Below are positions 1 through 5,016 of a stretch of 58,071 bases of DNA, piece by piece. The stretch is from contig JBHLLG010000016.1 in the NCBI GenBank assembly GCA_048885925.1, positions 1-58,071 on the forward strand, in the 5' to 3' direction. Position 1 is the first letter of the stretch. Every line of letters begins with the position of its first letter. The DNA is from Candidatus Hermodarchaeota archaeon (GTDB lineage Archaea > Asgardarchaeota > Lokiarchaeia > Sigyniarchaeales > SOKP01). The notes below the pieces were generated by a model, which made no database searches, was not told where the DNA came from, and saw nothing but the letters and a program-made list of their open reading frames with translations. A program made the translations under genes and the position numbers.

Positions 1-1317
1 AGAAGAATACTTAAGGATGAGATAGGTAGAAGAATTGATAGCGGTAATGAGATTGTTATTAAATATCTAATCAAGCAAAACTTTCTTGATTTGTTAGATA
101 ATGAAGAATTCTTAAGTTTATTATATGATAGCAATGACAAATTAAAAGACCACTTTCAAAATATTTTTGTTGATAGAAGAAATTTTGAAGATTTTGTTGT
201 TCCACTATTACTTAAAATTATAACACTTGATGAGAAAAATATATTTCAAAGTTATAGATCTTTTGGTTCAAATTTAATTTGTCAGTTATTATACCAATTT
301 CAAGAGTTATACAAAAAATATAGAGCATCTAATCTCAAGAATTGGATTCCATACAAGAAAATAGTCGAATATCTTGGACGTTTCAATACTAATTTAAAAT
401 TAAAGTGTTTTAGAGGAGTATTAATACCACCATCAGAAGTATCATTATTAAAAGAAATTGAAAGACAAATATATTATCCTTTCAATAAATCTCATGGAAG
501 GTTCAAACAGGTCAAAGAATTTGCATATAACCCTCAAAAAGCTCAAGATTGGAAATTTAATATTGAATATATATGGGGGGAAGAAGATGCTCAGTTTGTT
601 GTCCATAATAATCATGTAGAGACTGTTGCTTTCCGAGATATAAATGAATGTGGCGTTTGCTATAATAAAGATGAAGGGTGGTATCCTGATTTAGATGAGT
701 GTAATAAATGTGGACTTGAATATATACCTGAGAGTCTCAAATCGATGAATTATCTTAAAAATTTATTTATTTACGGAAGTAGAGAACATTTAGTTTTAGA
801 TTTTCCTAAGATGAGCAATGAATTAAAAGATTTATCCTTATTATTGATTAATGGAATATGGATTAGAGATTTAGAGAATCTTATTGATAAATTACCAGCA
901 CTAAAGGCTCTGGATCTCAGTAAGAACAATTTAGAATCTATTCCTAATAATATATATCATCTTAACTCCTTAGAGTATCTGATAATGGATAAAAATAAAA
1001 TAAAGATTTTTTCAGAGCTCATTGGAAACTTGAGATCACTTCGATTATTATCTCTAAGTAAAAACTTGATTGCTTATTTGCCAAAAAGTATAGGAAATTT
1101 ACAATTCCTTGAAATTTTGAATTTAAGTTATAATAACATTAATTCTTTACCTGATTCAATAGGTAATTTAAATAGTCTTAAATTACTTGATTTGAGTTAT
1201 AATCATATAGACTCATTTCCAAAATCATTAGACAAAATCAATTCTCTAAAAAAAGTAATTCTAAAAGGTAATAATTTAACTGAAATACCTAAATCTAACT
1301 TTGAAATTATTACTTAA
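1..1317 (+). CDS. Leucine-rich-repeat protein, 5'-truncated by the window edge
   Basis: Frame is open from base 1 (RRILKDEIGRRIDSGNEIVIKYL...), so TTG at 91 is probably internal. C-terminal tandem ~23-aa LRRs (LxxLxLSxNxIxxLPxSIGNL). Confidence 0.9.
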   Translation, partial: RRILKDEIGRRIDSGNEIVIKYLIKQNFLDLLDNEEFLSLLYDSNDKLKDHFQNIFVDRRNFEDFVVPLLLKIITLDEKNIFQSYRSFGSNLICQLLYQFQELYKKYRASNLKNWIPYKKIVEYLGRFNTNLKLKCFRGVLIPPSEVSLLKEIERQIYYPFNKSHGRFKQVKEFAYNPQKAQDWKFNIEYIWGEEDAQFVVHNNHVETVAFRDINECGVCYNKDEGWYPDLDECNKCGLEYIPESLKSMNYLKNLFIYGSREHLVLDFPKMSNELKDLSLLLINGIWIRDLENLIDKLPALKALDLSKNNLESIPNNIYHLNSLEYLIMDKNKIKIFSELIGNLRSLRLLSLSKNLIAYLPKSIGNLQFLEILNLSYNNINSLPDSIGNLNSLKLLDLSYNHIDSFPKSLDKINSLKKVILKGNNLTEIPKSNFEIIT

Positions 1318-1349: not shown

Positions 1350-2819
1350 TTATTTCTTTGTTTTTTTAGCTTCTATCTTTTTGATTATAATAGACTCTGC
1401 ATGGATCTTACAGTTTTTAAGGATAACTTTAAAGCCTCCCGCTCCACCGACGCCGGGAATTGTCATTCCTATAGTTCCCATTGGAACCATCGCGCCTTCT
1501 TCTTCATATTCCTCTTCTGCTTCTTCTATTCCACCAACAGCTGCTTTGTATTCGTCAGTTTTTACAATTGGATGTCCCACTTTTTCCAACCATGCTGGCA
1601 ATTGACTTAATTCGTTAACATCTTCTTCGGTAGCAATCTTATCCCTTAAATCTTCTGGAAGAAATTCTACTACACGGTCCTTAACAGATTTCGCCATCCA
1701 AACTACCAACTCAATCCCCTTTTCTATTCCTACTTGTATTGCATCATAAATCTGGAACTTTGGGCTTATAATATACTGAATACTAATTCCATTAAAACCG
1801 GGCATTTGTATTGGCTTTTTTACCTAATTGGTAAAAAAATTGCCACCCCCGGTTTGGTTTGCCATCGCACTAAAAGGTAATCCATTTATCGCTACATCAC
1901 CATAACTCCTATCAACGATACCATGTCCAATACCTGTTTCTGGAATGAGAAAATCGATCGCTTCAAAACAACCACATGAAGTGTGTGGGAATTCCATTCC
2001 TGAATATAGGTAAATGCGATTAATTTCTCCTAAAGAACGTTTCTTTATCATTTCATTAATCCCTGTATATTCTCCGGCTTCTTTATTGACAGTTTCACCC
2101 ATGGGAACTTCAAAAAGTGGCCCTTTCGGATCAACGCGTGCAGCCGCTCGAGCATCAAACCATGAAATCGAACCACATAAACTCATACGATTTGGCGTAA
2201 TACAACATGCATGTGTAGGGGCAAATGATTGGCATAAAACACAACCGTAGAACATATCAACATCATCATCGTTGATGCTTCGGGCTCTTTCGTCTCTCTT
2301 ATTATAGATCTGTAATGCAAAATCATATGGTTCCTTTATTTTATTAGGATCTGTATAAAATGTAACTTGTGCTTTTTTTATAATTGGAAGTTCAGCTTTA
2401 TACAATCTTATTAGAATTGTCCCAAGCATATTGAAAGAATTAAACCCTTTCTCGAAAGCAGTTTTGGAAATCCGCATCCAATTAGTATATCGTTGATTTA
2501 AATGCATTATTCCATTCACAAAATTACAGAATTCATGTACTCTCCTTTCGAATACAGCTTCTAAATCTTCTTCTAATTCAGGACCAGCCACTTCTACCAA
2601 AATCCCTATTGGATGTGTAGAGCCTTCTTCCATATCTTTGAGATCAGGTCCTATAAGTATTATCTTTCCATCTTCAATTTCTTTGTCCTTTTTCACACGC
2701 ACGAGCTCAAAATGCCGTTCCATTTTTGGACCGCCAAGTTCGACTTGCATTTGGTTTCCTCGAATTCTTTCACCCTCGTATACGGGTCCAACATCTACAG
2801 GCATATCTGCAAAACTCAT
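1350..2819 (-). CDS. cdhC: Acetyl-CoA decarbonylase/synthase beta subunit, predicted spliced: join(2819..1840,1809..1350), 479 aa
   Basis: Motifs VGPVYEGERIR, FYGCVLCQSFAP, PHTSCGCFE, then PGFxGISIxY..SPKF, an acidic linker and a KVILKNCKIHAE tail. The ORFs 1824..2819 and 1350..1805 are in the same frame, separated by one TAG inside a 30-nt insert. Confidence 0.93.
1810..1839 (-). other. Candidate 30-nt bulge-helix-bulge intron in cdhC mRNA
   Basis: Minus strand reads AAACCGGGGG-TGGC-AA^T-TTTTTTACC-AATTA-GGTAAAAAA-GCCA-AT^A-CAAATG-CCCGGTTT. It has a 4-bp helix TGGC/GCCA, 3-nt bulges AAT and ATA, a 9-bp inner stem and an 8-bp exon-exon stem. Excision gives GGC AAA CAA ATG. Confidence 0.82.
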
Positions 2820-2857: not shown

Positions 2858-3397
2858 TTATAATTTTTCAATTAAACTTTCTAAAAACAATTTCCAATCT
2901 TCATTACTTAGATTTGGTAAGCTGAATCTAGCATTTGGATGAGAATATTTATCTAGATCAATTGTTTTCACCCAGTTTGTAAAGTTCTTAATCCGAGATA
3001 ATGTCTGAGAGACATAAAATACTAAGTGTCCTCCGAAAATTGCCATAGAATATTGACCTTCTCCATCTAAACCAGCCCAATCTTTATCACATAAACGATC
3101 TGTAATATTGATCAATGCCATATCGTAGAGTTTATCTCCACTAATTTTATCTTTCAAATACATATAGGTATGACCAGTACTGACAATATGACAGTCAATT
3201 TTATTAACTATATCTATATAATAATCAGCGACCTTTTTTCCGTTGAGTTCCCAATTTAGTGATTCAGCGCCAATTACAAAAACTTTTTTGGCTGGGCTTT
3301 TCAAAAAGTTTGCCATCACTGCTGGATCTGAAACAGAAGTTCCCATTTCAGGGCCTGGAATGTTAGCTTTTTGATATGGACGTGCCATTTTACTCAA
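2858..3397 (-). CDS. cdhB: Acetyl-CoA decarbonylase/synthase epsilon subunit
   Basis: PYQKANIPGP N-terminus, WxGLDGEGQY and TIDLDKYSHPNARFSLPN motifs; directly upstream of cdhC. Confidence 0.88.
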   Translation of the reverse strand: MSKMARPYQKANIPGPEMGTSVSDPAVMANFLKSPAKKVFVIGAESLNWELNGKKVADYYIDIVNKIDCHIVSTGHTYMYLKDKISGDKLYDMALINITDRLCDKDWAGLDGEGQYSMAIFGGHLVFYVSQTLSRIKNFTNWVKTIDLDKYSHPNARFSLPNLSNEDWKLFLESLIEKL

Positions 3398-3582
3398 TTT
3401 CCTCTGTTATAATTTTTAGCTAGAACTTTTAAAATAATTGATATAGTTAGAATTATTAAAGACAATTTAAAAAAATTGTTTTTATTAATCTTAAATAGAA
3501 AAAGATGGTTAAAATATAAAAATAGAAATATAAAAAAATTTGCTAATTTGATAGAGATAATACACTTTTTTTTTAAAAGGTT

Positions 3583-5016
3583 TCATTGAAATTTATCAAA
3601 ATTAGGCTTTTTATCTTGCCATGGAGCAATCTCTTCAAAAGCTTTTGAAACTTGTAATACTAGCAATTCTTGGAATCTTTTTCCAACTATCTGTAACCCG
3701 ATTGGTAGGTTACCATTTGTCCATCCACAAGGGATACTTGCAGCTGGATGTCCAGTAAAGTTAAATGGAAACGTAAATGCTTGCCAAGCCGTAGGAACCA
3801 CATCAATTCCATTTATTTGAGATGGGTAGGGAATGCCTAATTCAAAAGCGGGAACTGCCGTTGTTGGAGTGAGAAGTATATCATAATTTTTGAAAGTTTC
3901 AAATATTGATTGATAAAATTGACTTCGAGTTCTCATGGCATCAGGTAAACTTGAGGCTGGAAATTGTAATCCTGCTTCAGCCCATATTACTAAGCCTGGA
4001 TCTAATTTATCTTTCCATTCTTTCAAATAAGGTTTTAATTCATATCCAAATATGATTAACCACATTGTACTAAAAGCCATGGAAGGATCTAATTTCTTAA
4101 ATTTTGCTTCTTCCACTTCCCACCCAAATGATTCAAATTTATGGACTGAATTAACTACTGCATTTTCGACCTCCTTATCAAAAACCTTAGCAAAACCTAA
4201 GTCTAGACTGTAACCAATCTTTAATTTATCTGATTTCTCATTTATATGGTCAGAATACTTAATATGATCTTCTGGTAATGAATGCTCATCTCCCTCAAAT
4301 GGTCCTTTCATAGCATCTAGCATTAATGCTGCGTCAGAAACATATCTTACAATTGGACCAATAACAGAAAATGTTTCATCACTTTGATAAAATTTTGGAT
4401 AAATCGGAACCCTTCTAAAGCTGGGTTTAAGACCATAAACCCCACAAAAGCAAGAAGGATGCCGAATAGAGCCCCCTCCATCCGAACCTTGAGCCAAAGG
4501 CCCCATTCCACAAGCCACTGAGACTGCAGCACCTCCACTAGAACCTCCAGATGTTTTTTTAAGATCCCAGGGATTTGGAGTTACTCCAAATATCAAGTTA
4601 TCAGTAACCCCTTTATAACCAAATTCTGGTGTATTTGTTTTTCCTAAAATTACACAACCAGCATCTTTTAAACGTTTAACGACAATAGCATCATCTTCAG
4701 GAATATGATGTTCATAAATTCTTGAACCGTAAGTAGTTCTCACTCCTTTTATCGGAACTAAATCTTTTATAGAAGTAGGAATCCCGTTTAAAATAGGGAT
4801 TTCTTCATTATTTTTTACTCTTTTATCGGCTTTTTTTGCCATCTCTCTAGCTAAATCAAATGTAGTAGTGCAGTATGCATTAATTAGTGGATTGATTTTT
4901 TCTATCCTTTCAATAATTATTTCAGTTATTTGTTCTGATGATAATTCTTGAGTCTTAATTTTTTTAAGCATTTCAAGGGCAGACATATAGCAAATATCTT
5001 CTTTTTTCGTTTCCAT
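3583..5016 (-). CDS. Amidase-signature family amidase
   Basis: GIPTSIKD, GKTNTPEF, GGSSGG and GSDGGGSIR (Lys-Ser-Ser triad). Confidence 0.93.
   Translation of the reverse strand: METKKEDICYMSALEMLKKIKTQELSSEQITEIIIERIEKINPLINAYCTTTFDLAREMAKKADKRVKNNEEIPILNGIPTSIKDLVPIKGVRTTYGSRIYEHHIPEDDAIVVKRLKDAGCVILGKTNTPEFGYKGVTDNLIFGVTPNPWDLKKTSGGSSGGAAVSVACGMGPLAQGSDGGGSIRHPSCFCGVYGLKPSFRRVPIYPKFYQSDETFSVIGPIVRYVSDAALMLDAMKGPFEGDEHSLPEDHIKYSDHINEKSDKLKIGYSLDLGFAKVFDKEVENAVVNSVHKFESFGWEVEEAKFKKLDPSMAFSTMWLIIFGYELKPYLKEWKDKLDPGLVIWAEAGLQFPASSLPDAMRTRSQFYQSIFETFKNYDILLTPTTAVPAFELGIPYPSQINGIDVVPTAWQAFTFPFNFTGHPAASIPCGWTNGNLPIGLQIVGKRFQELLVLQVSKAFEEIAPWQDKKPNFDKFQ

What the first reader, a model, noticed from the sequence alone, without database searches (positions are those of the whole stretch)
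1795..1855. Candidate bulge-helix-bulge mRNA intron interrupting cdhC (acetyl-CoA synthase)
Seen: the two cdhC ORFs are in frame, separated by a 30-nt insert containing TAG. On the minus strand the junction folds as follows: an exon-exon stem AAACCGGG(1855-1848)/CCCGGTTT(1802-1795); a G1846-C1808 pair; a 4-bp central helix TGGC(1845-1842)/GCCA(1815-1812); two 3-nt bulges on opposite strands, AAT(1841-1839) and ATA(1811-1809); and a perfect 9-bp inner stem TTTTTTACC/GGTAAAAAA with an AATTA loop. Known: archaeal tRNA-splicing endonuclease (EndA) cuts BHB motifs after the second nucleotide of each bulge and RtcB ligates; the established mRNA example is cbf5 of some Crenarchaeota. Applying that rule removes exactly 1839-1810 and gives GGC AA|A CAA ATG = GGG-K-QMPGF, matching the GGKQxxGF motif I recall in archaeal CdhC, in a 479-aa protein. 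Inference: a tRNA-type intron in a Wood-Ljungdahl core gene of a probable Asgard archaeon, which pipelines would call a pseudogene. The exon-side helix next to the second bulge is only 1 bp before an internal loop, so the BHB is slightly relaxed.
Basis: partly seen in the sequence, partly recalled or inferred. Interest (0 to 1): 0.95.

Follow-up and report, generated by a model that had tools for sequence, protein, structure and literature searches.

The report
Mini-introns in Asgard archaeal protein genes
A 30-base hairpin that interrupts a core carbon-fixation gene of an Asgard archaeon has the shape and exact borders of a tRNA-type intron, and four more genes in the same genome carry similar inserts, so these apparently broken genes are most likely intact and spliced at the RNA level.

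Summary
cdhC (minus strand, 2819..1350) is split by a 30-nt insert (1839..1810) with an in-frame TAG. [quoted passage not shown]

Support for the intron reading is comparative; no RNA evidence could be obtained.
- Intronless alleles in relatives lack exactly these 30 nt.
- Family profiles run on across the junction without a gap.
- Both gene halves are under strong purifying selection (dN/dS 0.03-0.06).
- A second species (L038) has the homologous insert with three compensatory pair changes. Both alleles keep all 8 outer-stem pairs; only 2 of 79 other alleles do.
- The genome encodes EndA and RtcB.

The case is not isolated.
- cdhC of related genomes carries 29-30-nt inserts at four sites.
- A whole-genome scan with a mirror-geometry control found four more inserts of 31-34 nt: cdhA, cooS, an AOR-linked ferredoxin and a JAMM protease. 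All four also shift the frame, so only excision can restore it.
- Papers I could search report one coding-region BHB intron so far, cbf5 of Crenarchaeota.

Verdict: new members of a known kind, in a new lineage and on an unexpected scale. The one RNA run did not cover the junction.

The parts
1840..2819 (-). cdhC 5' exon (codons 1-326 plus the first two bases of codon 327)
   Evidence: ORF. Pfam PF03598 and PF19436 profile positions 1-155. TIGR00316 profile 2-321.
1810..1839 (-). 30-nt BHB mini-intron carrying the in-frame TAG at 1826-1824
   Evidence: The gap in intronless alleles coincides with exactly these bases. BHB geometry is found only in this register. A homologous insert in L038 shows compensatory changes.
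1350..1809 (-). cdhC 3' exon (last base of codon 327 to the stop codon)
   Evidence: ORF2. PF19436 profile 157-242. TIGR00316 profile 324-460 starting at ORF2 residue 2. dN/dS 0.045-0.059 against five same-genus alleles.
1848..1855 (-). Outer exon-exon stem, 5' arm (pairs with 1802-1795)
   Evidence: Fold. All 8 pairs are kept in both insert-bearing alleles, against 2 of 79 other alleles.
1795..1802 (-). Outer exon-exon stem, 3' arm
1842..1845 (-). Central 4-bp helix, exon arm (pairs with 1815-1812)
   Evidence: Between the window and L038, one pair changed on both sides and one is broken in L038.
1812..1815 (-). Central 4-bp helix, intron arm
1839..1841 (-). 5' bulge; predicted cut between 1840 and 1839
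   Evidence: Unpaired 3-nt bulge in the MFE. The cut position agrees with the intronless alleles.
1809..1811 (-). 3' bulge; predicted cut between 1810 and 1809
   Evidence: It lies in a 7-nt unpaired stretch in the MFE. It is a 3-nt bulge only if G1846-C1808 forms. The cut position agrees with the intronless alleles.
1816..1838 (-). Inner intron hairpin: 9-bp stem (1838-1830 / 1824-1816) and 5-nt loop (1829-1825)
   Evidence: Compared with L038: 7 pairs unchanged, 2 changed on both sides, none broken.
2858..3397 (-). cdhB (CODH/ACS epsilon subunit) directly upstream; context only
   Evidence: Pfam PF02552, E 6.8e-23.

Best explanation
The 30 nt at 1839..1810 are an archaeal BHB intron inside the cdhC mRNA.

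Inferred mechanism: the transcript folds so that the last exon bases pair with the intron's 3' end (central helix), flanked by two short unpaired stretches. The tRNA-splicing endonuclease EndA cuts after the second base of each. RtcB joins the exons and probably circularises the 30-nt intron. The spliced mRNA encodes a full 479-aa acetyl-CoA synthase beta subunit.

Shown here: the fold, the exact borders, the conservation and covariation, and the presence of both enzymes.

Inferred: cleavage and ligation themselves.

The intron is one of a set of unrelated 29-34-nt mini-introns in protein genes of this Lokiarchaeia-type group. They are present in some species and absent in their near relatives.
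For: 1. Borders.
- In 20 same-genus cdhC alleles, 17 have no insert at this site or the neighbouring one, and their sequence is the window's with exactly 1839..1810 removed.
- In 81 alleles, 76 have no insert anywhere in the gene.
- Profile continuity holds for PF19436 (155 | 157) and for TIGR00316 (321, then 324 at ORF2 residue 2).

2. Geometry.
- The fold has z -2.99, and 0 of 200 shuffles fold as well.
- The BHB register is unique among nine shifts.

3. Selection on the protein.
- dN/dS against five same-genus alleles is 0.024-0.042 for the N-half and 0.045-0.059 for the C-half. The C-half value against L038, which shares the insert, is 0.058. pS is about 0.6-0.7.
- The window allele departs at only 1 site that is at least 95% conserved, which is the median over all alleles.
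- All 81 alleles are open once the insert blocks are removed.

4. Selection on the RNA.
- Window versus L038: 3 pairs changed on both sides, 9 unchanged, 1 broken.
- The outer stem is 8 of 8 in both insert-bearing alleles, against 2 of 79 others.

5. Machinery.
- EndA scores 101.7 bits and RtcB 569.6 bits, both over the family cut-offs.
- The EndA is closest to PDB chains 3p1z_B, 3ajv_B, 2cv8_A and 2zyz_B. I recall these as crenarchaeal subunits of the heteromeric, broad-specificity type.
- Passages of PMC5829648 say Asgard archaea carry that type with the L1 loop.

6. The case is not isolated.
- cdhC of other genomes has 29-30-nt inserts at gene positions about 581, 703/705, 959/961 and 980.
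- Of 16 inserts examined, 12 fit the strict BHB rule at the border that the alignment implies.
- Genome scan with a mirror-geometry control: 3 true versus 0 mirror at MFE <= -18 kcal/mol, and 2 versus 0 at 14 or more flanking pairs.
- Together these give cdhC plus cdhA (34 nt), cooS (32), a ferredoxin (32) and a JAMM protease (31).
- In four of the five genes, profiles meet exactly at the predicted junction: cdhC, cdhA, cooS and the ferredoxin. In JAMM the metal-binding motif is restored.
- The four new inserts are not multiples of three, so only excision restores the frame.

7. Independent DNA. L038 is a separate assembly. A contig of run X10, from another study, spans 1746-1920 with 12 substitutions and no gap.
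Against: - No RNA evidence. The one RNA run (X20) covers 2421-2612 only.
- The 3' bulge is not canonical in the MFE, which shows a 7-nt loop.
- The central helix has only 3 of 4 pairs in L038, L019 and L120.
- Three of the 16 inserts (L088, L183 site 705, L134) fit only relaxed forms that I read by eye. A fourth (L183 site 581) fits only in a register 2 nt from the aligner's gap.
- BHB-like geometry alone is common by chance in this 29% GC genome. Loose scans show no excess over the mirror control: 1725 versus 1703 and 802 versus 878. Only the stringent tail is enriched.
- The window allele has somewhat more private amino-acid changes than its four clade mates (19 against 0-11), a slightly higher pN/pS (0.083-0.103 against 0.053-0.080), and a long terminal branch of 0.12.
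- Only one EndA-family gene was found even at E <= 10, so a beta subunit is not shown.
- Coupled transcription and translation would let ribosomes read unspliced RNA and make a truncated product.
Confidence: 0.87

Rival explanations
1. cdhC is a recently inactivated pseudogene. A hairpin-forming 30-nt insertion brought in a stop codon, and there has not yet been time for decay.
For: There is an in-frame TAG. The window allele has the longest terminal branch in its clade and the most private amino-acid changes, 19 against 0-11. One related cdhA copy with an insert (L134, genome G020) does look degenerate: it has an internal TGA and an altered Cys-cluster exon.
Against: - The same insert is kept in L038 across a synonymous divergence of pS about 0.7, with dN/dS 0.04-0.058, compensatory stem changes and an intact outer stem.
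- Only 1 change falls at conserved sites.
- cdhA, cooS and cdhC of the same genome would all have to be dead while each remains otherwise intact.
- The borders coincide with the EndA cut rule in 12 of 16 inserts.
Confidence: 0.05
2. Gene fission: the two ORFs are translated separately (331 aa and 151 aa) and assemble as two subunits. The hairpin is an intercistronic element.
For: ORF2 starts with ATG four bases after the insert. The downstream pieces of cooS and JAMM also begin at or near possible start codons.
Against: - Fission would cut through conserved motifs: the Gly-rich stretch in CdhC, the CxxCxxC|xxxC cluster in the ferredoxin, and the HxH...S..D site in JAMM.
- It does not explain the BHB register, the covariation between exon and intron bases, or the narrow 29-34-nt size range.
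Confidence: 0.03
3. The insert is translated. Either TAG is read through (for example as pyrrolysine), giving a 10-residue insertion, or the ribosome hops over the hairpin.
For: The insert is 30 nt, a multiple of three, and holds a single TAG. It contains a stable hairpin.
Against: - No PylS was found above the cut-off: best 23.8 bits against 178.
- None of the 31 ARAGORN tRNA calls has a CUA anticodon, although that census is incomplete.
- The four other inserts are 31-34 nt and shift the frame.
- Read-through would put 10 foreign residues into a motif that is invariant in the alleles printed.
- By reading, landing on the repeated triplet just before the 3' border would resume out of frame in cdhC. 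cooS has no copy of its take-off codon before the resumption point.
Confidence: 0.02
4. Assembly or sequencing artefact in a metagenome-assembled genome.
For: The genome is a draft of 181 contigs. The best DNA run (X1) shows no contig over 1693-1839.
Against: A homologous insert is present in a separately assembled genome (L038), and in a contig of a run from a different study with 12 substitutions and no gap (X10 record 10). Similar inserts occur in several independent assemblies.
Confidence: 0.01

Closest known systems
cbf5 pre-mRNA intron of Crenarchaeota (Desulfurococcales, Sulfolobales); Watanabe 2002, Yoshinari 2006, Yokobori 2009 (PMC2738675, passages read)
   Same: Both are BHB-like motifs inside a protein-coding sequence. 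Both are linked to a host with the heteromeric, broad-specificity EndA type. Both show a patchy presence or absence among related species, interpreted as gain and loss.
   Different: - Phylum: Asgard rather than Crenarchaeota.
- Genes: metabolic enzymes and a protease, not an RNA-modification enzyme.
- Number: at least five genes per genome here, not one.
- Sites: several sites per gene across species.
- Evidence: cbf5 splicing was shown experimentally, whereas here it is inferred from sequence only.
[quoted passage not shown]
   Same: The motif, the predicted enzymes and the size range are the same: ARAGORN calls introns of 9-31 nt in many tRNA genes of this genome. The pattern of repeated, apparently independent gains at sites able to fold as BHB is also the same.
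   Different: The host RNA is an mRNA, so splicing has to restore a reading frame and compete with translation. That preprint treats tRNA genes only. Its term search found 'mRNA' 0 times and 'protein-coding' once, for synteny. Its intron-rich classes (Jordiarchaeia, Atabeyarchaeia) are not this lineage.
BHB intron in the 5' UTR of Haloferax volcanii HVO_1309 mRNA (PMC7714728, passages read)
   Same: An mRNA substrate of EndA outside tRNA and rRNA.
   Different: It lies in the untranslated leader and does not interrupt the coding frame. It is processed by a euryarchaeal homodimeric enzyme (enzyme type recalled, not checked).
HAC1/XBP1 unconventional mRNA splicing in eukaryotes (own knowledge; the RtcB-HAC1 paper appears in the reference list of PMC5829648)
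   Same: Non-spliceosomal removal of a short intron from an mRNA. Cutting is by a protein endonuclease at paired stem-loops, and joining is by an RtcB-type or tRNA ligase.
   Different: The endonuclease is Ire1, not EndA or Sen. The splicing is regulated by stress and changes the protein's C-terminus. No regulation is shown here.

Membership tests
Archaeal BHB (EndA/RtcB-dependent) intron | A 4-bp central helix formed by exon positions -6..-3 and intron positions -6..-3, with a 3-nt bulge 3' of it on the 5' strand | tested here: met
   4 of 4 pairs, and the bulge at 1841-1839 is unpaired in the MFE. Only shift 0 fits.
Archaeal BHB (EndA/RtcB-dependent) intron | A second 3-nt bulge on the opposite strand, closed by an outer helix | tested here: inconclusive
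   The 3' bulge 1811-1809 is closed only by the single pair G1846-C1808, which the MFE does not form. The MFE has a 7-nt loop followed by an 8-bp exon-exon stem. This is a relaxed, bulge-helix-loop-like form.
Archaeal BHB (EndA/RtcB-dependent) intron | Cutting after the second base of each bulge yields the functional mature sequence | tested here: met
   Intronless alleles equal the window minus 1839..1810. Profiles are continuous. The spliced frame is 479 aa.
Archaeal BHB (EndA/RtcB-dependent) intron | The host encodes the splicing endonuclease and the RtcB ligase | tested here: met
   PF01974 101.7 bits at C22:7945-8169. PF01139 569.6 bits at C12:26362-27669. A beta subunit was not found.
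Archaeal BHB (EndA/RtcB-dependent) intron | The structure is maintained in evolution (covariation) | tested here: met
   - Window versus L038: 3 double changes, 1 broken pair.
- Outer stem 8 of 8 in both carriers, against 2 of 79 other alleles.
- cdhA G000 versus L120: 1 double change, 1 one-sided change that keeps pairing, 1 broken pair.
- JAMM G000 versus L189: 2 double changes, 1 broken pair.
- Few sequences per site, so this is not a statistical test.
Archaeal BHB (EndA/RtcB-dependent) intron | A spliced RNA and an excised (circular) intron are observed | not testable with these tools
   The single RNA run that holds part of the gene covers 2421-2612 only.
cbf5-type pre-mRNA intron | Located in the cbf5 / pseudouridine synthase gene of Crenarchaeota | tested here: not met
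   The host gene is cdhC and the lineage is Promethearchaeota. It works like the cbf5 intron but is not a member of that orthologous intron.
Pseudogene | Relaxed selection on the parts downstream of the lesion | tested here: not met
   C-half dN/dS is 0.045-0.059. There is 1 change at sites that are at least 95% conserved, equal to the median over all alleles.
Pyrrolysine or stop-codon read-through | Pyl machinery present, and the insert tolerated as protein | tested here: not met
   PylS best 23.8 bits against a cut-off of 178. The four sister inserts shift the frame.
Group I or group II self-splicing intron | A catalytic RNA core of hundreds of nucleotides | tested here: not met
   The insert is 30 nt. 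There is no Rfam match at E <= 1 in 1300-2900, or at gathering score in the whole window.
Repeated mobile element (MITE-like) | Multiple similar copies in the genome | tested here: not met
   Each of the five inserts has only itself as a full-length match in the genome. The longest shared word between any two inserts is 8 nt.

The most novel reading that the evidence does not exclude
Lokiarchaeia-type Asgard archaea are undergoing ongoing gain and loss of tRNA-type mini-introns in protein-coding genes. The introns are each unique in sequence, are polymorphic between close species, and recur at hot spots such as Cys-cluster-coding stretches. There may be many more than the five found with my stringent scan. 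If so, the closest prokaryotic relatives of eukaryotes carry a natural population of mRNA introns removed by the ancestor of the eukaryotic tRNA-splicing endonuclease. Their concentration in CODH/ACS genes (3 of 5) may mean that splicing gates expression of the Wood-Ljungdahl pathway.
Probability: 0.35. Interest if true: 0.92.

Novelty: new member of a known kind. Interest (0 to 1): 0.8.

Why it matters
- State of knowledge. A 2020 study of EndA substrates states that the only BHB intron reported inside a coding sequence is cbf5 of Crenarchaeota (PMC7714728, passages read). A 2025 EndA structure paper cites only the same three cbf5 papers for pre-mRNA splicing in the one passage my term search returned (PMC12397907). 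Five searches of the held library found no report of such introns in Asgard protein genes or in cdhC.
- Annotation. Pipelines will call cdhC, cdhA, cooS and others pseudogenes or split genes, and so will wrongly infer that these organisms lack a working Wood-Ljungdahl pathway.
- Biology. The finding gives a set of presence/absence polymorphisms at many sites. This is the material needed to ask how archaeal introns arrive, which the 2026 tRNA-intron preprint leaves open.
- Evolution. It shows non-spliceosomal mRNA splicing in the lineage nearest to eukaryotes. It does not bear directly on the origin of spliceosomal introns.

Tried and rejected
RNA evidence
- One RNA run (X20) held 7% of the sampled words. 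When laid, it covers only 2421-2612 at 90-95% identity, so it says nothing about splicing.
- The best DNA holder, X1, showed no contig over 1693-1839. I draw no conclusion from that hole.

Scans
- The metagenome pattern scan for site-980 inserts found 0 stretches. The pattern was strict and the collection may hold few relatives.
- Loose BHB scans showed no excess over the mirror control. I rejected them as a way to count introns.
- Many candidates from the loose lists look like gene boundaries with terminator-like hairpins. I did not follow them.

Pair counts
- The automatic register picker chose other registers for L134, L197, L199, L230 and L231, so I do not use the pair counts that involve them.
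- The exon-intron covariation I describe for L197 versus L199 is read by eye from the alignment printed.

Ideas dropped
- The ferredoxin is not a CODH partner (CooF). Its upstream neighbour is an aldehyde:ferredoxin oxidoreductase.
- A repeated mobile element is rejected.
- A covariance-model search for more introns was considered and not run. The inserts share structure but no sequence, so scores would be too low for a genome of this size.

Limits
- Supplementary files of papers were not consulted. Those of the 2026 preprint and of PMC5829648 might list Asgard EndA subunits or non-tRNA introns that I could not see.
- The tree is the quick tree; the careful search did not finish. One row (L106, truncated) was left out.
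Full report
THE OBSERVATION

On the minus strand, cdhC is in two same-frame pieces: 2819..1824 (331 aa, ending in TAG 1826-1824) and 1805..1350 (151 aa). Pfam and NCBIfam identify both as parts of one acetyl-CoA synthase beta subunit. Nothing is missing between them.
- PF19436 positions 1-155 end at ORF1 residue 327, and positions 157-242 start at ORF2 residue 1.
- TIGR00316 runs 2-321 in ORF1 and then 324-460 from ORF2 residue 2.

The RNA fold of 1860..1790 has an MFE of -24.4 kcal/mol against -14.56 +/- 3.29 for shuffles (z -2.99, none of 200 as good). The single pair G1846-C1808 is not in the MFE, so the 3' side is a 7-nt loop rather than a clean 3-nt bulge. The motif is a relaxed BHB. Its handedness is the functional one: each bulge lies 3' of its arm of the central helix, as in a tRNA intron at position 37/38. 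That derivation is my own.

BORDERS

In 20 same-genus cdhC genes aligned as DNA, 17 have no insert at this or the neighbouring site. The aligner's gap is exactly 1839..1810. No neighbouring register gives the conserved Lys-Gln codons. In a wider set of 81 alleles from named Promethearchaeota MAGs, 76 have no insert. The BHB rule (4 central pairs, inner helix starting right after the bulge) is met only at shift 0 of nine registers tested. Splicing gives a 479-aa protein whose junction region is identical to that of intronless alleles.

IS THE GENE ALIVE?

dN/dS against five same-genus alleles is 0.024-0.042 for the N-half and 0.045-0.059 for the C-half, with synonymous sites near saturation. 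The telling comparison is with L038, an independent assembly that has an insert at the same site, 24 of 30 bases identical by my count from the strings printed. Between the two, the C-half has dN/dS 0.058 at pS 0.70. The gene has therefore stayed under purifying selection over the whole divergence between two lineages that carry the insert.

The window allele does have more private amino-acid changes than its four closest relatives (19 against 0-11) and a slightly higher pN/pS. Its terminal branch is long, at 0.12. Even so, it differs at only one site that is at least 95% conserved among the other alleles, which is the median for all alleles.

IS THE RNA STRUCTURE SELECTED?

Window versus L038:
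- Inner stem: 7 pairs unchanged and 2 changed on both sides.
- Central helix: 2 unchanged, 1 changed on both sides (one of the two bases being an exon base), and 1 broken in L038.

The 8-bp exon-exon stem rests partly on synonymous positions. Both carriers have 8 of 8 pairs, against 2 of 79 other alleles, most of which have 5-7. Similar exon-intron compensation appears in the JAMM gene, where a G-C pair becomes A-T between G000 and L189. A C-G to T-A change between L197 and L199 I read by eye.

MACHINERY

The genome (95% complete, 181 contigs, 29% GC) encodes one EndA-family protein and one RtcB.
- The EndA is closest to PDB chains that I recall as crenarchaeal catalytic subunits of the heteromeric enzyme.
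- Passages of PMC5829648 state that Asgard archaea have that type with the L1 loop that confers broad specificity, and that relaxed motifs need such enzymes.
- I did not find a beta subunit.
- ARAGORN finds only 31 tRNA genes, 19 of them with introns, many of 9-31 nt. The splicing system is clearly in heavy use.

THE CASE IS NOT ISOLATED

Within cdhC, other genomes carry inserts of 29 or 30 nt with unrelated sequences at three further sites.
- About 961 in L019/L063 and L021, and about 959 in L088, which belongs to another genus.
- 703 in L022/L086, and 705 in L183 of a third genus.
- 581 in L183.
- Across the class, 128 of 160 genomes searched have cdhC, and 7 of those have internal stops.

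A whole-genome scan asked for BHB geometry plus fusion of two long open frames that are broken without excision.
- With loose settings it finds as many hits in a mirror-image geometry that EndA should not cut: 1725 versus 1703 and 802 versus 878. The motif alone means little in this AT-rich genome.
- In the stringent tail the true geometry wins: 2 versus 0 with 14 or more flanking pairs, and 3 versus 0 with the BHB core present in an MFE of -18 kcal/mol or lower.

The union of those stringent hits is five genes.
- cdhC: 30 nt.
- cdhA: C6 5548-5581, 34 nt. TIGR00314 profile runs 4-61 and then 63-761.
- cooS: C4 38336-38367, 32 nt. TIGR01702 profile runs 1-546 and then 547-621.
- A four-cluster ferredoxin next to an aldehyde:ferredoxin oxidoreductase: C31 18988-18957, 32 nt. 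The CxxCxxCxxxC motif is restored, and the HybA-model profile reads 152 and then 155.
- A JAMM/MPN protease: C15 18569-18539, 31 nt. The HxHPx6Sx2D motif is restored.
The last four inserts shift the frame, which excludes read-through.

Relatives confirm the borders.
- cooS: 15 of 15 aligned relatives lack exactly the 32 nt.
- cdhA: 23 of 27 alleles with coverage have no insert. Two others share G000's insert, and one (L131) has two different inserts of 29 and 31 nt nearby, both in BHB geometry.
- JAMM: 4 of 22 alleles have an insert at the same site.
- Ferredoxin: 3 of 17 have an insert at the same site, in two unrelated sequence types. One genome has a second insert at another CxxC site.
- Of 16 inserts tabulated, 12 meet the strict rule at the border implied by the alignment. 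One meets it 2 nt away, and the product there agrees with the conserved residue. Three fit only relaxed forms.

ORIGIN AND DISTRIBUTION

The five inserts of this genome have no second copy in it and share no more than 8-nt words, so they are not a repeat family. In the cdhC tree, the window sits in a supported clade (95) with four intronless alleles, while L038 lies elsewhere (quick tree). The site-980 intron therefore needs at least two events: gain and loss, two gains, or recombination. This matches the picture of repeated gains at splice-competent sites drawn for Asgard tRNA genes in the 2026 preprint (abstract). That preprint does not treat mRNAs and concerns other classes.

RIVALS

Pseudogene, gene fission, read-through or hopping, and artefact are set out in their own sections. 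Each fails on at least two independent observations.

WHAT IS MISSING

Direct evidence of splicing is missing. I put the intron reading at 0.87.

COMPARISON AND NOVELTY

The mechanism is that of the cbf5 intron, and membership in the general class of BHB introns is met on all features I could test, except the closure of the 3' bulge. It is not the cbf5 intron itself. From the papers I could search and the passages I read in PMC7714728, PMC12397907, PMC5829648 and PMC2738675, coding-region BHB introns have been reported only for cbf5. Subscription journals and supplements were not visible to me. I file this as new members of a known kind, in a new lineage, in core metabolic genes and in unexpected numbers.

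Noticed in passing
L134 (genome G020, cdhA copy): This cdhA copy carries a 33-nt version of G000's insert. It also has an internal TGA and an altered Cys-cluster exon. It may be a decaying paralogue, which would show that not every interrupted copy is functional.
   Followed up: partly
Whole genome G000 (ARAGORN): Only 31 tRNA genes are called in a genome that is 95% complete, 19 of them with introns. This points to many tRNA genes with non-canonical or multiple introns that the program misses. One tRNA-Pro call has a 1335-nt 'intron', which may be an artefact.
   Followed up: no
cdhA around C6 5540-5610, ferredoxin C31 about 19215 and 18988, cdhC gene position 581: Insert sites cluster in stretches that encode Cys-cluster motifs. 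There are three sites within about 60 nt of the cdhA N-terminal cluster, two at CxxC motifs of the ferredoxin, and one in the Cys-containing stretch of cdhC. I cannot tell whether this is a site preference or a detection bias.
   Followed up: partly
Loci L039, L041, L052, L057, L058, L065, L067, L082 (titles; tree): Records titled Thorarchaeota, Hodarchaeota, Odinarchaeota and even 'Nanopelagicaceae bacterium' carry cdhC genes nested among the Promethearchaeota alleles at 83-91% identity. The labels or the binning of those records look unreliable.
   Followed up: no
All cdhC inserts: Every insert found in cdhC is 29 or 30 nt, although the sequences are unrelated. Inserts in the other genes are 29-34 nt. 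The narrow size range is unexplained.
   Followed up: no
window 1-1317 (+): The window starts inside an ORF whose translation looks to me like a leucine-rich-repeat protein with a Cys-rich stretch. It converges on the 3' end of cdhC. It was not checked against any family.
   Followed up: no
window 2858-5016 and contig C6: cdhB and cdhC are adjacent, but the gene upstream of cdhB is an amidase. cdhA lies on another contig (C6), so the usual cdhABC order is not kept here.
   Followed up: no
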